DNA from: Candidatus Eiseniibacteriota bacterium
GTDB lineage: Bacteria; Eisenbacteria; RBG-16-71-46; CAVPCR01
DNA: 64,000 nt
Assembly: GCA_963702435.1 (NCBI GenBank)
Contig: CAVPCR010000005.1
Span: 474,688 to 538,687 of the forward strand
Reading direction: 5' to 3'
Of this stretch, positions 39,463-44,352 are shown piece after piece. The first letter of the stretch is position 1, and every line of letters starts with the position of its first letter. Made by a program: the position numbers and the translations under genes. The notes beneath the pieces are model-generated. The model did not search any database. It worked only from the letters and a program-made list of their open reading frames with translations, and had not been told where the DNA came from.

Positions 39463-40635
39463 ATGCAGGCCATGCCGATCGTCTACAACATCCGCAACCT
39501 CGCCGTGCGCAAGGCGTCCACGTTGTTCACCGCGTTCGGGATCGCGCTGGTCGTGTTCATCTTCACCTCGATGCTGGCCTTCGAGCAGGGGCTCCGTGGC
39601 GCGCTGGTCAAGACCGGCCATCCCGAGAACGTGATCGTTCTCCGCGGCGGCGCGACCGGTGAGATCTCGAGCTACGTCCCGCGCGAGGATGCCGCCCTGA
39701 TCCGCGGCCTCCCCGAGGTGGCGCGCGATGCGGGCGGGCAGCCGCTCCTCACGGCCGACCTCCTCGTCGTCGTCAATCATCCGAAGCGCGGCGACGGCGC
39801 GCCGACCAACGTCTCGGTGCGCGGCATCTCGCCGCAAGCCTTCGCCCTCCGCCCGGAGGTCGAGGTCGTGGAGGGGCGCGCCTTCCGCCCTGGCGTGGCC
39901 GAGGTGATGGTCGGCAAGAGCCTCTCGCGCCGCATCCGGGACACCGGCCTCGGGGATCGCATCCGCTTCGGCGGTCAGGAGTGGCAGGTGGTCGGCATCT
40001 TCGCCGCGGACGGCTCGGCGTACGAATCCGAGATCTGGGGCGATGTCGAGCTCTTCCTCCCCGCCTTCGACCGCCCCGGCTATCAGTCCGCCACCTTCCG
40101 CCTCGCCGACCCGGGGCGCTTCGACGAGTTGAAGCGCCGGATCGAGGAGGAGCCGCAGCTCGAGGTGCAGGTGAAGCGCGAGAGCGAGTTCTACGCCGGG
40201 CAGTCGAAGGGCCTCGTCGCGTTGTTGCGAACGCTCGCGGTCTTCATCGGGATCATCATGTCGATCGGAGCGGTCTTCGGCGCCGTGAACACGATGTACG
40301 CGGCGGTCGCGGCGCGCACCCGCGAGATCGGCACGCTCATCGCGCTCGGCTTCACGCCGGGGGCCGTGCTTCGCTCCTTCGTGCTCGAGTCGATGATGAT
40401 CGCCGCGCTCGGTGGCGTGATCGGCTCGCTCCTCGCCTTCCTCGTCACCAACGGCCGCTCGACCGGCACGACGAACTGGGACAACTTCTCCGAGATCACC
40501 TTCCGCCTCGCCGTGACGCCGGGAGTGGTCGGCGCCGGGATCCTGTTCGCGCTCCTCATGGGGCTCGTCGGCGGCTACCTGCCGGCCCGCCGGGCAGCAC
40601 GGCTCCCGGTGGCGGAGGCTGTCCGCGCCGTGTGA
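39463..40635 (+). CDS. ABC transporter permease, FtsX/MacB-like (2)
   Basis: Same architecture as the previous permease, with ARTREIGTLIALGF in the FtsX domain. Confidence 0.85.
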   Translation: MQAMPIVYNIRNLAVRKASTLFTAFGIALVVFIFTSMLAFEQGLRGALVKTGHPENVIVLRGGATGEISSYVPREDAALIRGLPEVARDAGGQPLLTADLLVVVNHPKRGDGAPTNVSVRGISPQAFALRPEVEVVEGRAFRPGVAEVMVGKSLSRRIRDTGLGDRIRFGGQEWQVVGIFAADGSAYESEIWGDVELFLPAFDRPGYQSATFRLADPGRFDELKRRIEEEPQLEVQVKRESEFYAGQSKGLVALLRTLAVFIGIIMSIGAVFGAVNTMYAAVAARTREIGTLIALGFTPGAVLRSFVLESMMIAALGGVIGSLLAFLVTNGRSTGTTNWDNFSEITFRLAVTPGVVGAGILFALLMGLVGGYLPARRAARLPVAEAVRAV

Positions 40636-40693
40636 CGAGACGGGATCGGTGTGGTGGCCCCCTTGCCGGGCTCGCAGCGACCTGGTCAGCCCC

Positions 40694-41321
40694 GCGTCAA
40701 ACGCTGTCGGGTCTTGTGAACTCTCCCTTGGCCGACCCCGCCTGATCGCCCGCGACCTCAGCTGCCCCGCCTTTGGCCGCGGCGCCCGCGCGCGTCAACC
40801 GCTGTCGGGTCTTGTGAACTCTCCTTGGCCGACCCCGCCTGATCGCCCGCGACCTCCGCTGCCCCACCTTGGCCGCGGCGCCCGCGCGCGTCAAACGCTG
40901 TCGGGTCTTGTGAACTCTCCCTTGGCCGACCCCGCCTGATCGCCCGCGACTTCCGCCGCCCCACCTTTGGCCGCGGCGCCCGCGCGCGTCAACCGCTGTC
41001 GGGTCTTGTGAACTCTCCCTTGGCCGACCCCGCCTGATCGCCCGCGACCTCCGCTGCCCCACCTTGGCCGCGGCGCCCGCGCGCGTCAAACGCTGTCGGG
41101 TCTTGTGAACTCTCCTTGGCCGACCCCGCCTGATCGCCCGTGACCCCCGCTGCCCCACCTTGGCCGCGGCGCCCGCGCGCGTCAAACGCTGTCGGGTCTT
41201 GTGAACTCTCCTTGGCCGACCCCGCCTGATCGCCCGCGACCTCAGCTGCCCCGCCTTTGGCCGCGGCGCCCGCGCGCGTCAACCGCTGTCGGGTCTTGTG
41301 AACTCTCCTTGGCGACCCACC
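40694..41321. repeat. Tandem repeat array: 6 full plus 1 partial copies of a 96-98-bp unit (minisatellite)
   Basis: The unit is gcgtcaaMcgctgtcgggtcttgtgaactctcc(c)ttggccgaccccgcctgatcgcccgcgacYYCMgcYgccccRcctt(t)ggccgcggcgcccgcgc. Units start at 40694, 40792, 40888, 40986, 41083, 41179 and 41276. Only about 7 positions vary. A degenerate partial copy precedes the array at ~40660. Confidence 0.9.
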
Positions 41322-41865
41322 TTCCAAGCACAAGACCACGCAAGCGGATCTCGTGATCCGAGCGTTGGCTGCGCTCACACCGATGAATTGCACAAAACGT
41401 GCCACTCCACCACGCGAGATGCGCGATGCCAAAGGCGAATCCGCGCCTGGGGTTCTCCCCTGGCGACCCCGCCACCGAGGTGCGCACGCCGTTGTCACTG
41501 TCGACAACCTCGTTACCAGAACGCCATCGTCGCCAACGCCCGGCGTCGCCGCATCGCTGCCAGCGCCACCACCGCCGCTCGCCCATGCTGCCCACCTACG
41601 AGGAACTCCGGGGCGGCCTCATGGGCGCGAAAGAGCCCGCCGAGCGCGCGCCCGAGCTCGCGCTTACCGCGCTTGGGCTCATCGAACCGCGCCCGCTCCG
41701 GCGCGGGGGAGCTCCCCCGCGAGATCGTGGAAGAGCGCCTCCAGATCGTCGTCGAGCAAGGGGAGAGAGCAAAACCAAGCCTGCGGCCTGCCGATCGCGA
41801 ACACTCCAATCCCGTGGACCCGCGAGAGTCCGAGGAGTAGGATCGATTCATCCGTGCGGTGACTG

Positions 41866-44352
41866 ATGGCGGTCCAGCTAGTCGCAAAGGAGCTGCCCGT
41901 GCCCTCGCCCTTTCGCATACTCGCTTGCGTTTGCCTCATCGTGCCCGCCGCGCACACGGCGTCCGCGATCCCACTCCTCACCGCGCCCTACCTATCGTTC
42001 GATACCGGCATCTTCCCGTCTTCCGTGGCGATCGGCGATCTCGACGGCGACGGGGAGCCGGACCTGGCAGTCGCCAACGAACAGGGGTACACGGTGTCGG
42101 TCCTGCTGGGCAGCGGCGGCGGCGCTTTCGAACCCAAGACCAGCTACGCGACGGCCGGACAGTCCTACTCGGTGGCGATGGGCGATGTGAATGGGGACAG
42201 CAAGCTCGACTTGGTGCTGGCATGTTGGTCCGCCGGCGCGGTATCGGTCCTGCTCGGAAACGGCGATGGAACGTTCGGACCGAGAGCCGACTTCCCCGCC
42301 GGAAACACCACGCTCTCGGTGGCGATCGGGGATCTGAACGGCGACGGCGAGCCCGATCTGGCCGCAGCGAACTACGGTTCGAACGACGTGTCCGTGCTCA
42401 TCGGAAATGGCGACGGCACGTTCGCTCCGAAGACGGACTACGTCGTGGGTCCGGGCGCCAACTTCGTGGTGATAGAAGACATGAACAGAGACGGCCGGCG
42501 GGATCTGGTCGTGTCGGTTTCGAGCTCCAACGCGATCGCGGTCCTGGCGGGAATTGGCAACGGGGCGTTTCTGCCGGCGACCTACACGGCAACCCCCGGC
42601 CCTGCTCAGTCGGTGGCGCTCGGTGACCTCGACGGGGATGGGAAAGTGGACCTCGTGGCGGCGATCAGTCCCAACGCGACGGTGGTGTTGATGGGCCACG
42701 GGGATGGGACGTTCGGAGCGCCGGGCACCTACCACGTGGGCGGCCGGTTCGCGGCGAGCGGAGACCTCAACGGCGACCGGAAGCCGGACATGGCGGCGGT
42801 GGCCGCCTCGTACAATGGCGGCGTATCGGTGCTCCTCGGGCATGGTGACGGCACGTTCGGGCCGCCGGCGACGTTCTCAACGGGAAGGCAGCCCATGTTC
42901 GTGACCGTCGGCGACCTCGACCGGGACGGGCAGCCGGAACTCGCCGTCGCAAACCGCCTGTCCAGTACGGTGACCGTACACCACGGGAATGGAGATGGGA
43001 CGTTTGGACTTGATCGCCAGTGCGAAACGGGATTGAGGCCGCGGTCGGTGGCAATCGGCGATCTGAATGGTGATGGTCTGCTGGATCTCGCCAGCGCGAA
43101 CGAGAACGCGAACACCGCGTCGGTGCTGCTGGCGACCAGCCCCGCGACATTCGGGCCGAAGGTCGATCTTGCGGCCGGACTCCGTCCCCACTTCGTGGCC
43201 CTCGAGGACTTGAACGCCGACGCCAAGCGGGACCTGCTCGTGGGCAACCTGAGCTCGAACACCGTGACCGTGAGGCTCGGCAACGGCGACGGATCATTTG
43301 GCACCGGACTCGATTTCGAAACCGGCGGCGCTCCCATCGCCAGCGCGATCGCCGACCTCAACGGCGACGGGAGGCCTGATCTCGCGGTGGCGGACACGCT
43401 GCGGGCGGTGTCGGTGCTGCTGGGGCGGGGGGATGGGACGTTTGCGCTGCGGACCGACTACGCGACCGGGGATTACTGCGCTTCGGTGGCCGTGGCGGAC
43501 CTCAACGGCGATGACAAGAACGACCTGGTCACCGCGAACGCGGGTAGCCCGCCAAGCTATGTCGGGTCGCTCTCGATCCTGCTCGGAAACGGCGATGGGA
43601 CCTTCGGCCCGAAGACGGATGTCTTTCCCGGAGCTGGGAGCCGGCCTCAATCCGTGGCGATCGGGGATCTTGACCGGGATGGGAAGCAGGATCTTGTCGT
43701 GGCGCTCGGCCGGCTGGCGGTGTTTCGCGGGAATGGCGACGGGACGTTCGGACCCAGGAGCGATGTGGGCCTGCTGCAGAGCGCCCGGTTCGTCGCGACG
43801 CTGGATCTGAACGGCGACGGAATGCTCGACCTCGCGGCGGCGACCGGCTTCTCGTCGATCGACGTCGTGGCGGTGCTGCTCGGCAGCGGGGACGGCACGT
43901 TCGGGACGCGAGTCGACTACGGCGCGGCACAGAATCCTGTGTCGCTGGCGAGCGGGGATCTCAATCGCGATGGCCGGCCCGACCTGGCGGTAGCAAACGC
44001 CAGCTCGAACACGATATCGCTGCTCCTGTCCGCTGCCCCTCCGGTGGTCGCCGTCCCGCCCGGAGCCGCGCCGCACCCGCTCGTGTCGGCTCGCGTCCAT
44101 CCAACACCCGCGCCCGGCGACCTCACCATCGAATTCGCGCTGCCACGTCCCGCCGAAGCGACGATCCGAGTCTACGACGCCACGGGCCGGCTTGTGCGGA
44201 CGCTCGGCGGTGGCGTGTTCGCTGCAGGCGAGCATGCCGTGCGCTGGGATCGGCGCGGCGTACACGGCGCGGCCGCGCCGCCGGGCGTCTACTTTGTCGA
44301 GCTCCGGGTGGGCCGCGAGCGGGTGTCGAAGCAGGCGGTGCTGGTTCGATAG
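41866..44352 (+). CDS. Secreted 14-repeat FG-GAP/VCBS beta-propeller protein with a FlgD/T9SS-type C-terminal sorting domain
   Basis: 828 aa. There are 14 repeats of ..(G/A)DLNGDG.PDL(A/V)VAN....VSVLLG.GDGTF. The C-terminus PGDLTIEFALPRPAEATIRVYDATGRLVRTL...HAVRWDRRG..GAAAPPGVYFVELRVG matches the Por_Secre_tail/FlgD-Ig pattern. Confidence 0.85.
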   Translation: MAVQLVAKELPVPSPFRILACVCLIVPAAHTASAIPLLTAPYLSFDTGIFPSSVAIGDLDGDGEPDLAVANEQGYTVSVLLGSGGGAFEPKTSYATAGQSYSVAMGDVNGDSKLDLVLACWSAGAVSVLLGNGDGTFGPRADFPAGNTTLSVAIGDLNGDGEPDLAAANYGSNDVSVLIGNGDGTFAPKTDYVVGPGANFVVIEDMNRDGRRDLVVSVSSSNAIAVLAGIGNGAFLPATYTATPGPAQSVALGDLDGDGKVDLVAAISPNATVVLMGHGDGTFGAPGTYHVGGRFAASGDLNGDRKPDMAAVAASYNGGVSVLLGHGDGTFGPPATFSTGRQPMFVTVGDLDRDGQPELAVANRLSSTVTVHHGNGDGTFGLDRQCETGLRPRSVAIGDLNGDGLLDLASANENANTASVLLATSPATFGPKVDLAAGLRPHFVALEDLNADAKRDLLVGNLSSNTVTVRLGNGDGSFGTGLDFETGGAPIASAIADLNGDGRPDLAVADTLRAVSVLLGRGDGTFALRTDYATGDYCASVAVADLNGDDKNDLVTANAGSPPSYVGSLSILLGNGDGTFGPKTDVFPGAGSRPQSVAIGDLDRDGKQDLVVALGRLAVFRGNGDGTFGPRSDVGLLQSARFVATLDLNGDGMLDLAAATGFSSIDVVAVLLGSGDGTFGTRVDYGAAQNPVSLASGDLNRDGRPDLAVANASSNTISLLLSAAPPVVAVPPGAAPHPLVSARVHPTPAPGDLTIEFALPRPAEATIRVYDATGRLVRTLGGGVFAAGEHAVRWDRRGVHGAAAPPGVYFVELRVGRERVSKQAVLVR

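What the first reader, a model, noticed from the sequence alone, without database searches (positions are those of the whole stretch)
40694..41321. 6.5 tandem copies of a ~97-bp GC-rich unit between the ABC exporter and the secretome genes
Unit lengths are 98, 96, 98, 97, 96 and 97 bp, so the array cannot be a coding repeat. Copies are more than 92% identical.

Variation is concentrated at about seven positions: A/C after TCAA, a C indel in CTCC(C)TTGG, CTCA/CTCC/TTCC/CCCC, G/A in CCCCRCC, and a T indel. Units 1 and 6 share the same variant combination at the CTCA / CCCCGCC / T-indel sites.

It is not CRISPR-like because there are no unique spacers, and I do not recognise any IS/MITE termini. 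It is followed by ~540 bp with no convincing ORF.

Candidate roles include an array of protein-binding sites, a tandem small-RNA or decoy locus, or a hypervariable minisatellite.
Basis: seen in the sequence. Interest (0 to 1): 0.6.

Follow-up and report, generated by a model that had tools for sequence, protein, structure and literature searches.

The report
Sigma-54-driven repeat arrays matching nuclease gene
The 97-bp repeat array is real and is one of about 31 similar non-coding units scattered through this uncultured bacterium's genome, each sitting behind the same type of switchable (sigma-54) promoter, and its invariant 31-base core is the same sequence that a multi-copy DNA-cutting-enzyme gene carries inside itself, which points to an undescribed partnership between a repeat family and a nuclease.

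Summary
**Observation:** confirmed. The array spans 40693-41318, with period 97, 6.5 copies and 95 % identity.

**What it is:** one member of a genome-wide family of 133 copies of an invariant 31-nt core at 36 loci.
In 29 of 31 intergenic loci a sigma-54 -24/-12 element lies 38-221 nt beyond the array and points into it (window: 41389-41404, minus strand).
- A conserved enhancer-like dyad block sits about 100 nt further upstream (41480-41517). This accounts for the "540 bp without ORF".
- Arrays are non-coding. They match no Rfam family and show little selected RNA structure.

**Link to a nuclease gene:** the same core lies in-frame, written in rare codons, in the disordered linker of a five-copy gene for a ParB-like/HNH nuclease.
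- The same-genus genome G097 has homologous sigma-54 modules with a different core.
- That core matches G097's own copies of the gene, so array core and in-gene motif co-vary.

**Evolution:** modules differ in copy number, presence and orientation between close relatives, and in position between congeners.

**Best reading (inferred):** a promoter-led, transcribed multi-site platform or decoy for whatever reads this motif, probably the nuclease.

The parts
40693..41318 (-). Tandem array of 6.5 units of 96-98 nt. The sense strand is the minus strand. Each unit is a 31-nt core followed by about 66 nt of array-specific, G-rich sequence containing an imperfect hairpin around a GGCGGGG/GGUGGGG loop.
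   Evidence: TRF. Register and periods. Strand assignment from the sigma-54 element. Sense-strand composition G 44 %, C 28 %. Hairpin in register at 84.5 % paired versus 21-56 % when slid.
40693..40723 (-). The promoter-distal copy of the seven 31-nt cores (GAGTTCACAAGACCCGACAGCGTTTGACGCG). The other six lie at 40791-40821, 40887-40917, 40985-41015, 41082-41112, 41178-41208 and 41275-41305. Three of the seven (40791, 40985, 41275) carry a T-to-G change at a position that is T in 159 of 164 family members.
   Evidence: Coordinates. Per-position conservation over 164 instances, with 13 positions invariant. Variant table.
41306..41378 (-). Leader of about 73 nt between the inferred transcription start (about 12 nt downstream of the -12 GC) and the first core.
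   Evidence: Inferred from the promoter position. No experimental TSS is available.
41389..41404 (-). Sigma-54-type -24/-12 promoter element, TGGCACGTTTTGTGCA, pointing into the array.
   Evidence: Regex GG[CT]A[CT][GA]N4NTGC[ATC] gives 197 hits genome-wide. 27 of 36 arrays have exactly one hit 38-221 nt beyond the array, always on this strand, and two more appear with a relaxed last base. rpoN and about 22 bEBP genes are present.
41480..41517 (-). Conserved 38-nt UAS-like block, GGTAACGAGGTTGTCGACAGTGACAACGGCGTGCGCAC. It contains the dyad GTTGTC-N6-GACAAC (41491-41508) and the palindrome GTGCGCAC, centred about 100 nt upstream of the -24 element.
   Evidence: 25 occurrences genome-wide, 23 of them beside arrays. 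Not coding, because the downstream frames are unconserved. Retained in orthologous modules of relatives while the spacers diverge.
40636..40692 (-). 57-nt tail between the last core and the stop codon of the convergent ABC permease gene. No canonical terminator is present.
   Evidence: Sequence. Terminator scan found none here.
39463..40635 (+). Context: MacB/FtsX-type ABC permease gene, convergent with the array transcript.
   Evidence: Pfam MacB_PCD and FtsX.
41866..44352 (+). Context: FG-GAP repeat protein with a T9SS-type C-terminal domain, divergent from the module. Its start lies about 350 nt beyond the UAS block.
   Evidence: Pfam FG-GAP_3, FG-GAP, FlgD_ig, and a weak Por_Secre_tail hit.

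Best explanation
The array is the repeat body of a lineage-specific, dispersed, non-coding transcription unit.

**Architecture (shown):**
- About 31 intergenic loci in this genome share one layout. An enhancer-like dyad block lies about 100 nt upstream of a sigma-54 -24/-12 promoter. A 40-220-nt leader follows, then 1-9 tandem units.
- Each unit begins with an invariant 31-nt core and continues with array-specific G-rich sequence.
- In the window the unit reads right to left on the minus strand and ends against the 3' end of the ABC permease gene.
- The core is the same nucleotide motif that a five-copy ParB-like/HNH nuclease gene carries, in the same polarity and written in rare codons, in its disordered linker.
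- In the same-genus genome, homologous modules carry a different core that matches that genome's own copies of the gene.

**Function (inferred):** the core is the recognition element of a trans-acting reader, most likely the ParB-like/HNH protein itself. The arrays would then be bEBP-inducible multi-site platforms for it. When the cognate enhancer-binding protein fires, each locus would produce a G-rich RNA displaying up to nine unstructured core copies. Transcription could equally act by exposing the cores in the DNA.
For: **Family and architecture:**
- 133 cores at 36 loci, with 13 core positions invariant in 164 instances.
- The sigma-54 element is strictly coupled to the arrays in position and orientation. 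27 of 36 arrays have it against about 0.008 expected per array, and 29 of 31 intergenic loci have it with a relaxed regex.
- The UAS block occurs 25 times, 23 of them at arrays.
- rpoN and about 22 bEBP genes are present.

**Conservation:** UAS, promoter and core are retained block-wise while the spacers diverge, both between paralogues and between orthologous loci in relatives.

**Autonomy of the unit:** downstream genes are functionally unrelated, and about 40 % of modules face a convergent gene.

**Core reads as primary sequence:** units are no more structured than shuffles, apart from one hairpin.

**Link to the nuclease gene:**
- The in-gene core uses rare codons TCA, ACA and TTT, at 2.7 %, 2.9 % and 4.6 % usage.
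- Homologues keep the same TTT/GCA spelling.
- Co-variation: G097 arrays carry CACGAACGCGTTTGCAG / GCGAACGCGTTTGCAGCGG downstream of their own sigma-54 element, and this matches G097's gene copies.
- The protein shows ParB/Noc-like DNA-binding folds and an HNH domain.

**Functional precedent:** CrcZ is an RpoN/CbrB-dependent RNA with repeated motifs that titrates Hfq (PMC4063720).
Against: - There is no expression data.
- No binding partner has been demonstrated.
- A ParB-type helix-turn-helix domain suggests a DNA reader rather than an RNA reader, which favours the DNA-level rival.
- Thirty-one decoy genes is far more than any known sponge system has.
- Array number does not scale with nuclease gene copy number. 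This genome has 5 genes and 133 cores, G097 has at least 4 genes and about 12 cores, and G083 has at least 8 genes and 3 extra-genic copies.
- The co-variation could arise from gene conversion between the gene's internal repeats (period 78-111 nt) and the arrays (92-103 nt) without any shared reader.
- One module has a promoter and UAS but no core (upstream of ruvB), and two arrays lack a promoter, so the coupling is not absolute.
- RNA covariation support is weak.
Confidence: 0.42

Rival explanations
1. DNA-level repeat-enzyme partnership, REPIN/RAYT-like. The core is the duplex-DNA recognition or cleavage site of the ParB-like/HNH nuclease. Cutting and recombinational repair would homogenise cores genome-wide against the in-gene copy. 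The same process would expand and contract arrays and move or invert modules. On this reading the arrays are essentially selfish or a by-product. Their link to sigma-54 promoters would exist because transcription (R-loops on the G-rich non-template strand) is needed to expose the site, or because the promoter hitch-hikes within the mobile unit.
For: - The protein has ParB/Noc-type DNA-binding folds plus an HNH domain.
- Core identity across 36 loci is extreme while everything around it diverges, as expected from concerted evolution.
- The core co-varies with the resident gene between congeners.
- Copy number, presence, orientation and position of modules change between relatives, and a 41.7-kb rearrangement abuts the window's array.
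- Degenerate cores occur at array edges and in leaders.
- REPIN/RAYT provides a precedent for cognate repeat-enzyme pairs (PMC3116915, PMC3337134).
Against: - The strict position and orientation downstream of a conserved sigma-54 promoter and UAS (29 of 31) is not required by a DNA-site model.
- The core is neither palindromic nor internally repeated, unlike parS or REP sites.
- Nuclease cassettes are not inserted at or next to arrays, and no cassette remnants flank arrays.
- UAS and promoter blocks are also conserved, which nuclease-driven homogenisation of the core would not explain.
Confidence: 0.3
2. Cis-acting leader repeats. The arrays would be long 5' untranslated leaders that tune expression of the downstream gene after sigma-54 initiation. 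Possible mechanisms are Rho loading on the C-rich, unstructured cores set in otherwise G-rich RNA, or binding of a translational regulator. The match to the nuclease gene would be incidental gene conversion.
For: - About 18 modules are followed by a co-directional gene 0-700 nt away.
- In a relative, a module heads a six-gene CoA-dependent catabolic operon and lies divergent from an aryl-CoA ligase gene.
- In L030 the module reads into a gene that also has its own sigma-70-like promoter.
Against: - About 11 modules, including the one in the window, have no co-directional gene and run into a convergent gene's 3' end.
- Downstream genes are unrelated housekeeping, respiratory and secreted functions.
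- The distance from the last core to the start codon is not constrained.
- This reading does not explain the rare-codon conservation of the motif inside the nuclease gene or the cross-species co-variation.
Confidence: 0.12
3. Functionless hypervariable minisatellite. The arrays would be neutral tandem expansions of a sequence that happened to be duplicated along with a promoter, and the copy number in this assembly could be partly an artefact.
For: - The family is lineage-restricted. The core is absent from 205 other genomes of the phylum and from GTDB representative genomes.
- Arrays turn over rapidly between relatives.
- Short-read contigs break at arrays.
- The homopolymer indels between units may be sequencing error.
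- Similar promoter-bearing dispersed arrays have been noted in other phyla in this scan. These are unchecked notes.
Against: - Block-wise conservation of UAS, promoter and core contrasts with saturated divergence of the spacers, both in paralogues and in orthologues.
- 13 core positions are invariant in 164 copies.
- The core co-varies with the nuclease gene motif across species.
- Arrays of the same family appear in independent assemblies.
Confidence: 0.1

Closest known systems
REPIN/REP sequences with their RAYT transposases (PMC3116915, PMC3337134)
   Same: A short non-coding repeat family is dispersed through intergenic regions, often in clusters. It is confined to a lineage and is tied to one resident enzyme gene whose cognate sequence changes together with the repeats between species.
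   Different: - REPs are 20-40-nt palindromes that flank the RAYT gene. Here the core is non-palindromic and lies inside the enzyme's coding sequence.
- The enzyme here is a ParB-like/HNH protein, not an IS200/IS605-type tyrosine (HUH) transposase.
- The repeats here are head-to-tail arrays behind a sigma-54 promoter and UAS, not inverted doublets.
MIRU minisatellites of Mycobacterium tuberculosis (46-101-bp tandem repeats at 41 loci; PMC3914561)
   Same: Tandem units of about 50-100 bp occur in two size classes at a few dozen intergenic loci, with copy-number variation between strains.
   Different: - No sequence relationship to MIRUs was found; this was not tested by alignment beyond the Rfam and literature searches.
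- To my knowledge MIRUs have no dedicated promoter or UAS module, no invariant core with a free remainder, and no cognate enzyme gene.
BOX elements of Streptococcus pneumoniae (boxA-(boxB)n-boxC; PMC3049150)
   Same: A modular dispersed element with a variable number of tandem internal units, transcribed and able to affect neighbouring genes.
   Different: BOX has defined terminal modules and predicted stable folds. The units here show no selected overall structure. They are bounded on one side by a sigma-54 promoter and have no conserved distal end.
Protein-sponge RNAs: CrcZ (RpoN/CbrB-dependent, titrates Hfq; PMC4063720) and CsrB/RsmZ (own knowledge)
   Same: A sigma-54 promoter with a bEBP site drives a non-coding RNA whose only conserved feature is a short, unstructured motif repeated several times. 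This is what the array would work like.
   Different: - Known sponges are present as 1-5 genes, not about 31.
- Their motifs are short (A-rich tracts or GGA). Here the motif is 31 nt, GGA is not universal, and the binding partner is unknown.
- No sponge is known to share its motif with a nuclease gene.
CRISPR arrays
   Same: A leader-proximal promoter is followed by a 28-37-nt direct repeat alternating with 20-70-nt intervening segments, with many arrays per genome. The associated protein family has an HNH domain weakly resembling the IscB/Cas9-type HNH.
   Different: - Intervening segments within an array are near-identical rather than unique, and share a hairpin between arrays.
- No cas genes lie beside the array.
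- Degenerate repeats lie at the promoter-proximal end.
- The HNH similarity is at domain level only, 28 bits against a 175-bit cut-off.
ParB-type centromere arrays such as sopC of plasmid F (12 x 43-bp repeats bound by SopB; own knowledge) and I-TevI autorepression through a homing-site-like operator (own knowledge)
   Same: Tandem direct repeats each carry one binding site for a ParB-family DNA binder. Separately, there is precedent for a nuclease that binds a copy of its recognition sequence in its own gene.
   Different: - sopC is a single plasmid locus with a palindromic site in each unit, whereas here there are 36 chromosomal loci with a non-palindromic core behind promoters.
- Binding of the protein to the core has not been tested.

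Membership tests
CRISPR array | Unique spacers between identical repeats | tested here: not met
   Inter-core segments within each array are 90-100 % identical to each other and share a hairpin module across arrays.
CRISPR array | cas genes adjacent or elsewhere in the genome | tested here: inconclusive
   The neighbours of the window array are an ABC permease and an FG-GAP protein, and no recurrent partner gene lies within 4 kb of any array. A genome-wide cas search was not run.
Sigma-54-dependent promoter with bEBP enhancer | GG at -24 and GC at -12 with canonical spacing | tested here: met
   The window has TGGCACG-N4-GTGCA. The same form occurs at 27-29 arrays, from only 197 genome-wide hits.
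Sigma-54-dependent promoter with bEBP enhancer | rpoN and enhancer-binding proteins encoded | tested here: met
   PF04552 hit at C2:462667-463144. 28 PF00158 matches, corresponding to about 22 genes.
Sigma-54-dependent promoter with bEBP enhancer | Conserved dyad about 80-150 nt upstream | tested here: met
   A 38-nt block containing GTTGTC-N6-GACAAC lies about 100 nt upstream at 23 arrays and is conserved in orthologues.
Sigma-54-dependent promoter with bEBP enhancer | Mapped transcription start and dependence on sigma-54 and a bEBP | not testable with these tools
Dispersed minisatellite (MIRU/BOX-type class) | Tandem 40-100-bp units at many intergenic loci | tested here: met
   31 intergenic loci with periods of 50-67 and 92-103 nt.
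Dispersed minisatellite (MIRU/BOX-type class) | Copy-number polymorphism between strains or relatives | tested here: met
   Orthologous loci differ. C1:1078682 has periods 113/112/59 where L026/L028 have 67 x3, and C2:422610 has 1 core where L033 has 2.
Protein-sponge sRNA (CsrB/RsmZ, CrcZ) | Known motif of the cognate protein (GGA in loops for CsrA; A-rich ARN tracts for Hfq) | tested here: not met
   GGA at the unit junction is not universal, and the core is neither GGA-centred nor A-rich. A CsrA gene does exist.
Protein-sponge sRNA (CsrB/RsmZ, CrcZ) | Repeated, accessible, sequence-conserved motif on one transcript | tested here: met
   1-9 invariant cores per array. Units are no more structured than shuffles, with mean z of -0.98 (long units) and +0.21 (short units).
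REPIN/RAYT-type repeat-enzyme partnership | Repeat sequence co-varies with a resident enzyme gene across lineages | tested here: met
   In G000 the core matches the G000 gene linker. In G097 a different core matches the G097 gene linkers. G083 is tentative.
REPIN/RAYT-type repeat-enzyme partnership | Enzyme is an IS200/IS605-like tyrosine transposase flanked by palindromic REPs | tested here: not met
   The protein has no Pfam family. Its fold resembles ParB/Noc DNA-binding domains plus an HNH domain. The motif lies inside the ORF and is not palindromic.
Any Rfam family | Covariance-model match | tested here: not met
   cmscan of 39500-43000 at E<=10 returned only a chance hit inside the ABC gene.

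The most novel reading that the evidence does not exclude
The arrays and the ParB-like/HNH gene form a new kind of repeat-nuclease system in which transcription is part of the mechanism. An enhancer-binding protein would switch on about 30 sigma-54 promoters. Each would drive RNA polymerase through G-rich tandem repeats that display the nuclease's 31-nt recognition core, either on the RNA or in the resulting R-loops.

Two outcomes are possible. One is inducible titration and control of a selfish nuclease by host-encoded decoy RNAs. The other is inducible, site-directed nicking and recombination at the arrays, a bacterial analogue of promoter-driven switch regions. The second would account for the array turnover, the inversions and the 41.7-kb rearrangement seen at array borders.
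Probability: 0.2. Interest if true: 0.9.

Novelty: new variant of a known kind. Interest (0 to 1): 0.68.

Why it matters
If the reading holds, this is a repeat-enzyme partnership of a type not described before. A sigma-54/enhancer-controlled family of repeat transcripts carries a core that tracks a motif hidden, in rare codons, inside a multi-copy ParB-like/HNH nuclease gene.

- **Function of an orphan gene family.** It would give a first functional handle on a widespread, unannotated nuclease family related to DUF222/13E12-type HNH genes, which is multi-copy in several Eisenbacteria genomes.
- **Use of sigma-54 promoters.** These modules account for about one seventh of the matches to the sigma-54 promoter motif in this genome (27 of 197). 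That would be an unusual use of this regulatory machinery.
- **Direct testability.** The 31-nt core and the protein are defined, so binding and cleavage assays, and reporter assays in a laboratory host, can test the idea.
- **Practical uses.** The arrays are natural VNTR markers for this uncultured lineage, and they explain why short-read assemblies of it fragment.

Tried and rejected
- **Known RNA family:** rejected. The Rfam scan at E<=10 found nothing.
- **CRISPR:** rejected, because the spacers are not unique.
- **Coding repeat:** rejected. Only 39 % of periods are divisible by 3, and stops occur in the only plausible frame.
- **UAS block as the start of a conserved divergent gene:** rejected. 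An apparently synonymous variation pattern suggested this, but the downstream frames are unconserved junk.
- **Long antisense seed:** rejected. There is no excess of complementary 12-14-mers outside the arrays compared with shuffled cores.
- **CsrA sponge:** disfavoured. A CsrA gene exists, but GGA is not a constant feature of the units.
- **Arrays as decayed insertions of the nuclease cassette:** rejected. tblastn finds no protein remnants near the arrays, and blastn finds no similarity between the UAS or leader and the cassette.
- **Recurrent partner gene next to modules:** none found beyond the abundant T9SS cargo genes.
- **Strongly selected RNA fold:** not supported.
- **Sporadic exact 13-mers in other genomes as in-gene copies:** these are chance hits.
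- **Distant paralogue at C3:211258:** it lacks the motif.
- **Positional orthology of G097 and G000 modules:** none.
- **Arrays in the 22 kb around homologue P0006, and on the short P0002/P0003 contigs:** uninformative.
- **Literature searches for sigma-54 plus tandem-repeat sRNAs and for Eisenbacteria:** no description of such a family.
Full report
**1. Observation**

Tandem Repeats Finder reports a single array at window 40693-41318, with period 97, 6.5 copies, 95 % matches and score 1120.

The array lies between a MacB/FtsX-type ABC permease gene (39463-40635, plus strand) and an FG-GAP/T9SS-type secreted protein gene (41866-44352, plus strand). The window is C5:474688-538687 of a six-contig, 4.98-Mb, 70 % GC genome. 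Earlier unchecked notes of this scan assign it to Candidatus Eisenbacteria.

**2. A genome-wide family**

A search of the whole genome with the unit showed that only its first 31 nt recur, and they do so massively. With up to 4 mismatches in a 26-nt query there are 133 copies at 36 loci. They form arrays of 1-9 copies with periods in two classes, about 50-67 nt and about 92-103 nt, and some arrays mix the two.

Over 164 instances, including relatives, the conserved block is GAGTTCACAAGACCCGACAGCGTTTGACGCG, written on what turns out to be the sense strand. Thirteen of its positions are invariant.

The rest of each unit is array-specific and strongly G-rich on that strand. The skew is +0.18 overall, and in the window array G is 44 % and C is 28 %. 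Long units share one further module, a hairpin around a GGGUGGGG-type loop.

**3. Strand and control region**

Its reverse complement, GGCAYG-N4-GTGCA, has the GG and GC dinucleotides of a sigma-54 promoter at the canonical spacing.

A regex for this motif has 197 hits in the genome, or 0.02 per kb per strand. 27 of 36 arrays have exactly one hit 38-221 nt beyond the array, always on the opposite strand and so pointing into the array. None has a hit in any other configuration.

Relaxing the last base adds two more loci. Five of the remaining loci lie inside a protein gene (section 6). One lies 800 nt downstream of another array and may share its promoter.

About 85-120 nt upstream of the promoter element there is a 38-nt conserved block, GGTAACGAAGTTGTCGAAAGTGACAACGGCGTGCGCAC. 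It contains the dyad GTTGTC-N6-GACAAC. It has 25 occurrences genome-wide, 23 of them at arrays. A minority of modules carry a variant, GTGACAACGCCGTTGGCGG.

The variation in this block looked synonymous in one frame. However, the frames downstream of it are unconserved, so it is not coding.

The genome encodes RpoN and about 22 enhancer-binding proteins. In the window the promoter element is at 41389-41404 and the UAS block at 41480-41517, both on the minus strand. The inferred transcript starts near 41378, enters the first core at 41305, and runs leftwards through seven cores to within 57 nt of the ABC gene's stop codon.

**4. What the units are not**

- No Rfam family matches.
- The units are not coding. 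Only 39 % of periods are divisible by 3, and stops occur in the one open-looking frame.
- They are not CRISPR, because the intervening segments within an array are near-identical.
- There is no excess of complementary sites elsewhere in the genome that would indicate a long antisense seed.
- Selected RNA structure is weak. The long-unit hairpin is in register, at 84.5 % paired versus 21-56 % when slid, and contains many G-U pairs that would be A-C mismatches on the other strand. However, compensatory changes do not clearly beat shuffles.
- Folding-energy z-scores are -0.98 (sense) and -0.59 (antisense) for long units, and +0.21 and -0.32 for short units.

The conserved entity is therefore the primary sequence of the core.

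**5. Evolution and context**

*Lineage restriction.*
- The core is absent, at up to 2 mismatches, from 150 other genomes of the phylum, and absent from all GTDB representative genomes.
- The invariant 13-mer occurs 105 times here and 0-3 times in 205 other genomes, where the hits are chance.

*Metagenomic relatives.*
- Fourteen metagenome contigs carry the core. Their flanks are 84-94 % identical to this genome, so they come from close relatives, and they show the same UAS-promoter-leader-array layout.
- At orthologous loci the UAS, promoter and core are retained while the spacers diverge, in one case beyond alignment. Unit type and copy number differ.

*The window's own locus.* In relatives L029/L030 the same ABC gene is followed by a module in the opposite orientation with a different unit type, and then by a gene that lies 41.7 kb away in this genome.

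*Neighbouring genes.*
- In this genome about 18 modules precede a co-directional gene. These genes are functionally unrelated and include RsgA, ValS, cytochrome bd, peptidases, a recombinase and others.
- About 11 modules, including the window's, face a convergent gene.
- In a relative, one module heads a six-gene catabolic operon that this genome has lost.
- No partner gene recurs next to the modules.

*Separability.* One UAS-promoter copy has no core and lies upstream of ruvB, and another retains only half a core. Promoter and array are therefore separable but nearly always coupled.

**6. The link to a nuclease gene**

*The gene.*
- Five loci with two cores each lie inside a five-copy cassette of about 2.5 kb, whose copies are 97.5-98 % identical. 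The cassette has its own sigma-70-like promoter and encodes a protein of about 750 aa.
- The protein has no significant Pfam family.
- Its C-terminal region is an HNH domain. The similarity to IscB HNH is weak and at domain level only: NF040563 at E 9.5e-7 with 28 bits against a cut-off of 175, and PDB 9k2z at E 0.034.
- An AlphaFold model has mean pLDDT 59, with two confident helical domains and a disordered linker at residues 478-534. Its best PDB matches are 18 ParB/Noc/Spo0J DNA-binding domains, with probability up to 0.94 and TM 0.62 but weak E-values.

*The in-gene core.*
- The two cores lie in the linker, in the sense orientation and in frame, encoding SHDPTAFDA twice. The spacer between them is 78-99 nt here and 111 nt in a relative, which is the same period as the long array units.
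- The peptide motif (x)TAF occurs one to three times in the linker of all homologues, down to 40 % identity.
- The constraint acts on nucleotides. The core is spelled with TCA, ACA and TTT, at 2.7 %, 2.9 % and 4.6 % usage. Two of the gene's three TTT codons lie in the cores.
- Homologues keep GCG-TTT-G(C/A) with the rare TTT and GCA codons.
- The arrays are not remnants of decayed cassettes.

**7. Co-variation**

The gene family is multi-copy in relatives, with at least 4 copies in the same-genus genome G097 and at least 8 in the same-order genome G083.

*G097.*
- The linkers of G097's copies read GCC GCG AAC GCG TTT GCA GCG and TCC ACG AAC GCG TTT GCC.
- A 12-nt pattern for this version has 15 hits in G097 against 2 in the control. 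Five are in the genes, and the rest form tandem clusters at four other loci.
- Those loci have the same architecture as here. A UAS-like block, AGAAGTGACAACGGCGTTGGCGG, shares AGTGACAACGGCGT with ours and nearly equals this genome's minority UAS class. It lies about 95 nt upstream of a sigma-54 element (GGCATGATCCGTGCT). A conserved leader of about 220 nt follows, then 2-4 cores, CACGAACGCGTTTGCAG or GCGAACGCGTTTGCAGCGG, in the same polarity.
- So homologous modules carry, in each species, the version of the motif found in that species' own nuclease genes.
- The G097 modules lie at positions that have no array in this genome, which means modules relocate on the genus timescale.

*G083.* This genome gives only tentative support. 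Three tandem copies of its version lie outside the genes, but without a recognisable sigma-54 element and possibly inside a coding region.

**8. Interpretation**

*Shown:* the family, the module architecture, the strand, the block-wise conservation, the identity of the core with the in-gene motif, the nucleotide-level constraint on that motif, and the two-species co-variation.

*Inferred:* that the modules are transcribed, and what the core does.

The best-supported reading is that the core is the recognition element of a trans-acting reader, most plausibly the ParB-like/HNH protein. The arrays would then be inducible multi-site platforms or decoys for it. CrcZ is a functional precedent: an RpoN/CbrB-dependent RNA with repeated motifs that titrates Hfq (PMC4063720).

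The main rival is a DNA-level, REPIN/RAYT-like partnership, in which the nuclease homogenises and mobilises its cognate repeats (PMC3116915, PMC3337134).
- For the RNA-level reading: the fixed promoter-array orientation, and the shared polarity with the gene's mRNA.
- For the DNA-level reading: the ParB-type fold, and the rapid array turnover.

I put these two readings at 0.42 and 0.30. A pure cis-leader function gets 0.12 and a neutral minisatellite 0.10.

**9. Comparison and novelty**

As a class the arrays resemble MIRUs, which are 46-101-bp repeats at 41 loci (PMC3914561), and BOX elements (PMC3049150). They differ in having a dedicated sigma-54/UAS module, an invariant core with a free remainder, and a cognate enzyme gene.

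Unchecked notes from this scan describe promoter-bearing dispersed arrays, and one repeat-nuclease pair, in other phyla. This lowers the surprise of the general theme. However, I found no described system combining sigma-54-led arrays with a motif embedded in a nuclease gene.

I therefore class this as a new variant of a known kind.

**10. Limits**
- The co-variation rests on two species plus one tentative case.
- Protein-core binding is untested.
- The structure model is only partly confident.
- The assembly may contain homopolymer errors.

Noticed in passing
G000 C6:86223-88553(-), C1:307980-310295(-), C1:396288-398534(+), C1:740049-742382(+), C4:198046-200379(-): A cassette of about 2.5 kb is present in five copies that are 97.5-98 % identical. 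It encodes an unannotated protein of about 750 aa, with ParB/Noc-like helical domains, a disordered repeat linker and an HNH domain, and it has its own TTGACA-N17-TAGGTT promoter. The cassette ends inside the 3' end of the ORF, so each copy has a different C-terminal tail. The family is also multi-copy in G097 (at least 4 copies) and G083 (at least 8).
   Followed up: partly
G000 C2:462667-463144 (-): The RpoN DNA-binding-domain match is split into two adjacent hits in different frames. This is either a real frameshift or an indel error in the assembly. It bears on how far 1-nt homopolymer differences in this assembly can be trusted.
   Followed up: no
window 40636 onward; G000 C5:515320-557054, compared with L029/L030: In close relatives the ABC permease gene is followed, after a module in the opposite orientation, directly by the gene at C5:557054. 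This genome has 41.7 kb of mostly secreted-protein genes in between, so a large insertion, deletion or rearrangement has a border at the window's array.
   Followed up: partly
L030:1255-1340: In the relative, the last 19 bp of the ABC permease gene, including its stop codon (GCGCGGTGTAGCGGCGGCC), are tandemly repeated about four times immediately after the gene.
   Followed up: no
G000 C3:373525 region (minus strand): A complete UAS plus sigma-54 element of the family type (GGCACGGTTCGTGCA), with no core array, lies about 300 nt upstream of ruvB.
   Followed up: partly
G000 C5:556940-557055: Another minisatellite, with units such as CCTCGCTGCCG(A/C)CCCACGCG, fills the gap between a T9SS-cargo gene and the leaderless-type promoter (TTGACC-N17-GATAAT) of the next gene.
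   Followed up: no
L032:2145-4226 and L027:1-6500, compared with G000 C2:653900-654030: Relatives carry an aryl-CoA ligase gene divergent from a module-led six-gene operon (amidase, SDR, RidA, enoyl-CoA hydratase, acyl-CoA dehydrogenase, flavin monooxygenase/OYE fusion). This genome has a deletion of about 7.5 kb that removes the operon and truncates the ligase gene.
   Followed up: partly
G000 C2:216860-219100 (downstream of array C2:216567): The valyl-tRNA synthetase reading frame contains an internal stretch that translates as Arg/Gly-rich junk between well-conserved parts. This suggests a pair of compensating frameshifts, either an assembly error or a real lesion.
   Followed up: no
L087 (G083 C1:2809560-2809670): Three tandem copies of GCGCCCACGTTTGCAC, which is G083's version of the nuclease-gene linker motif, lie outside any homologue of that gene. 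They have no sigma-54 element, and the stretch is open in a frame that reads APTFAP three times.
   Followed up: partly
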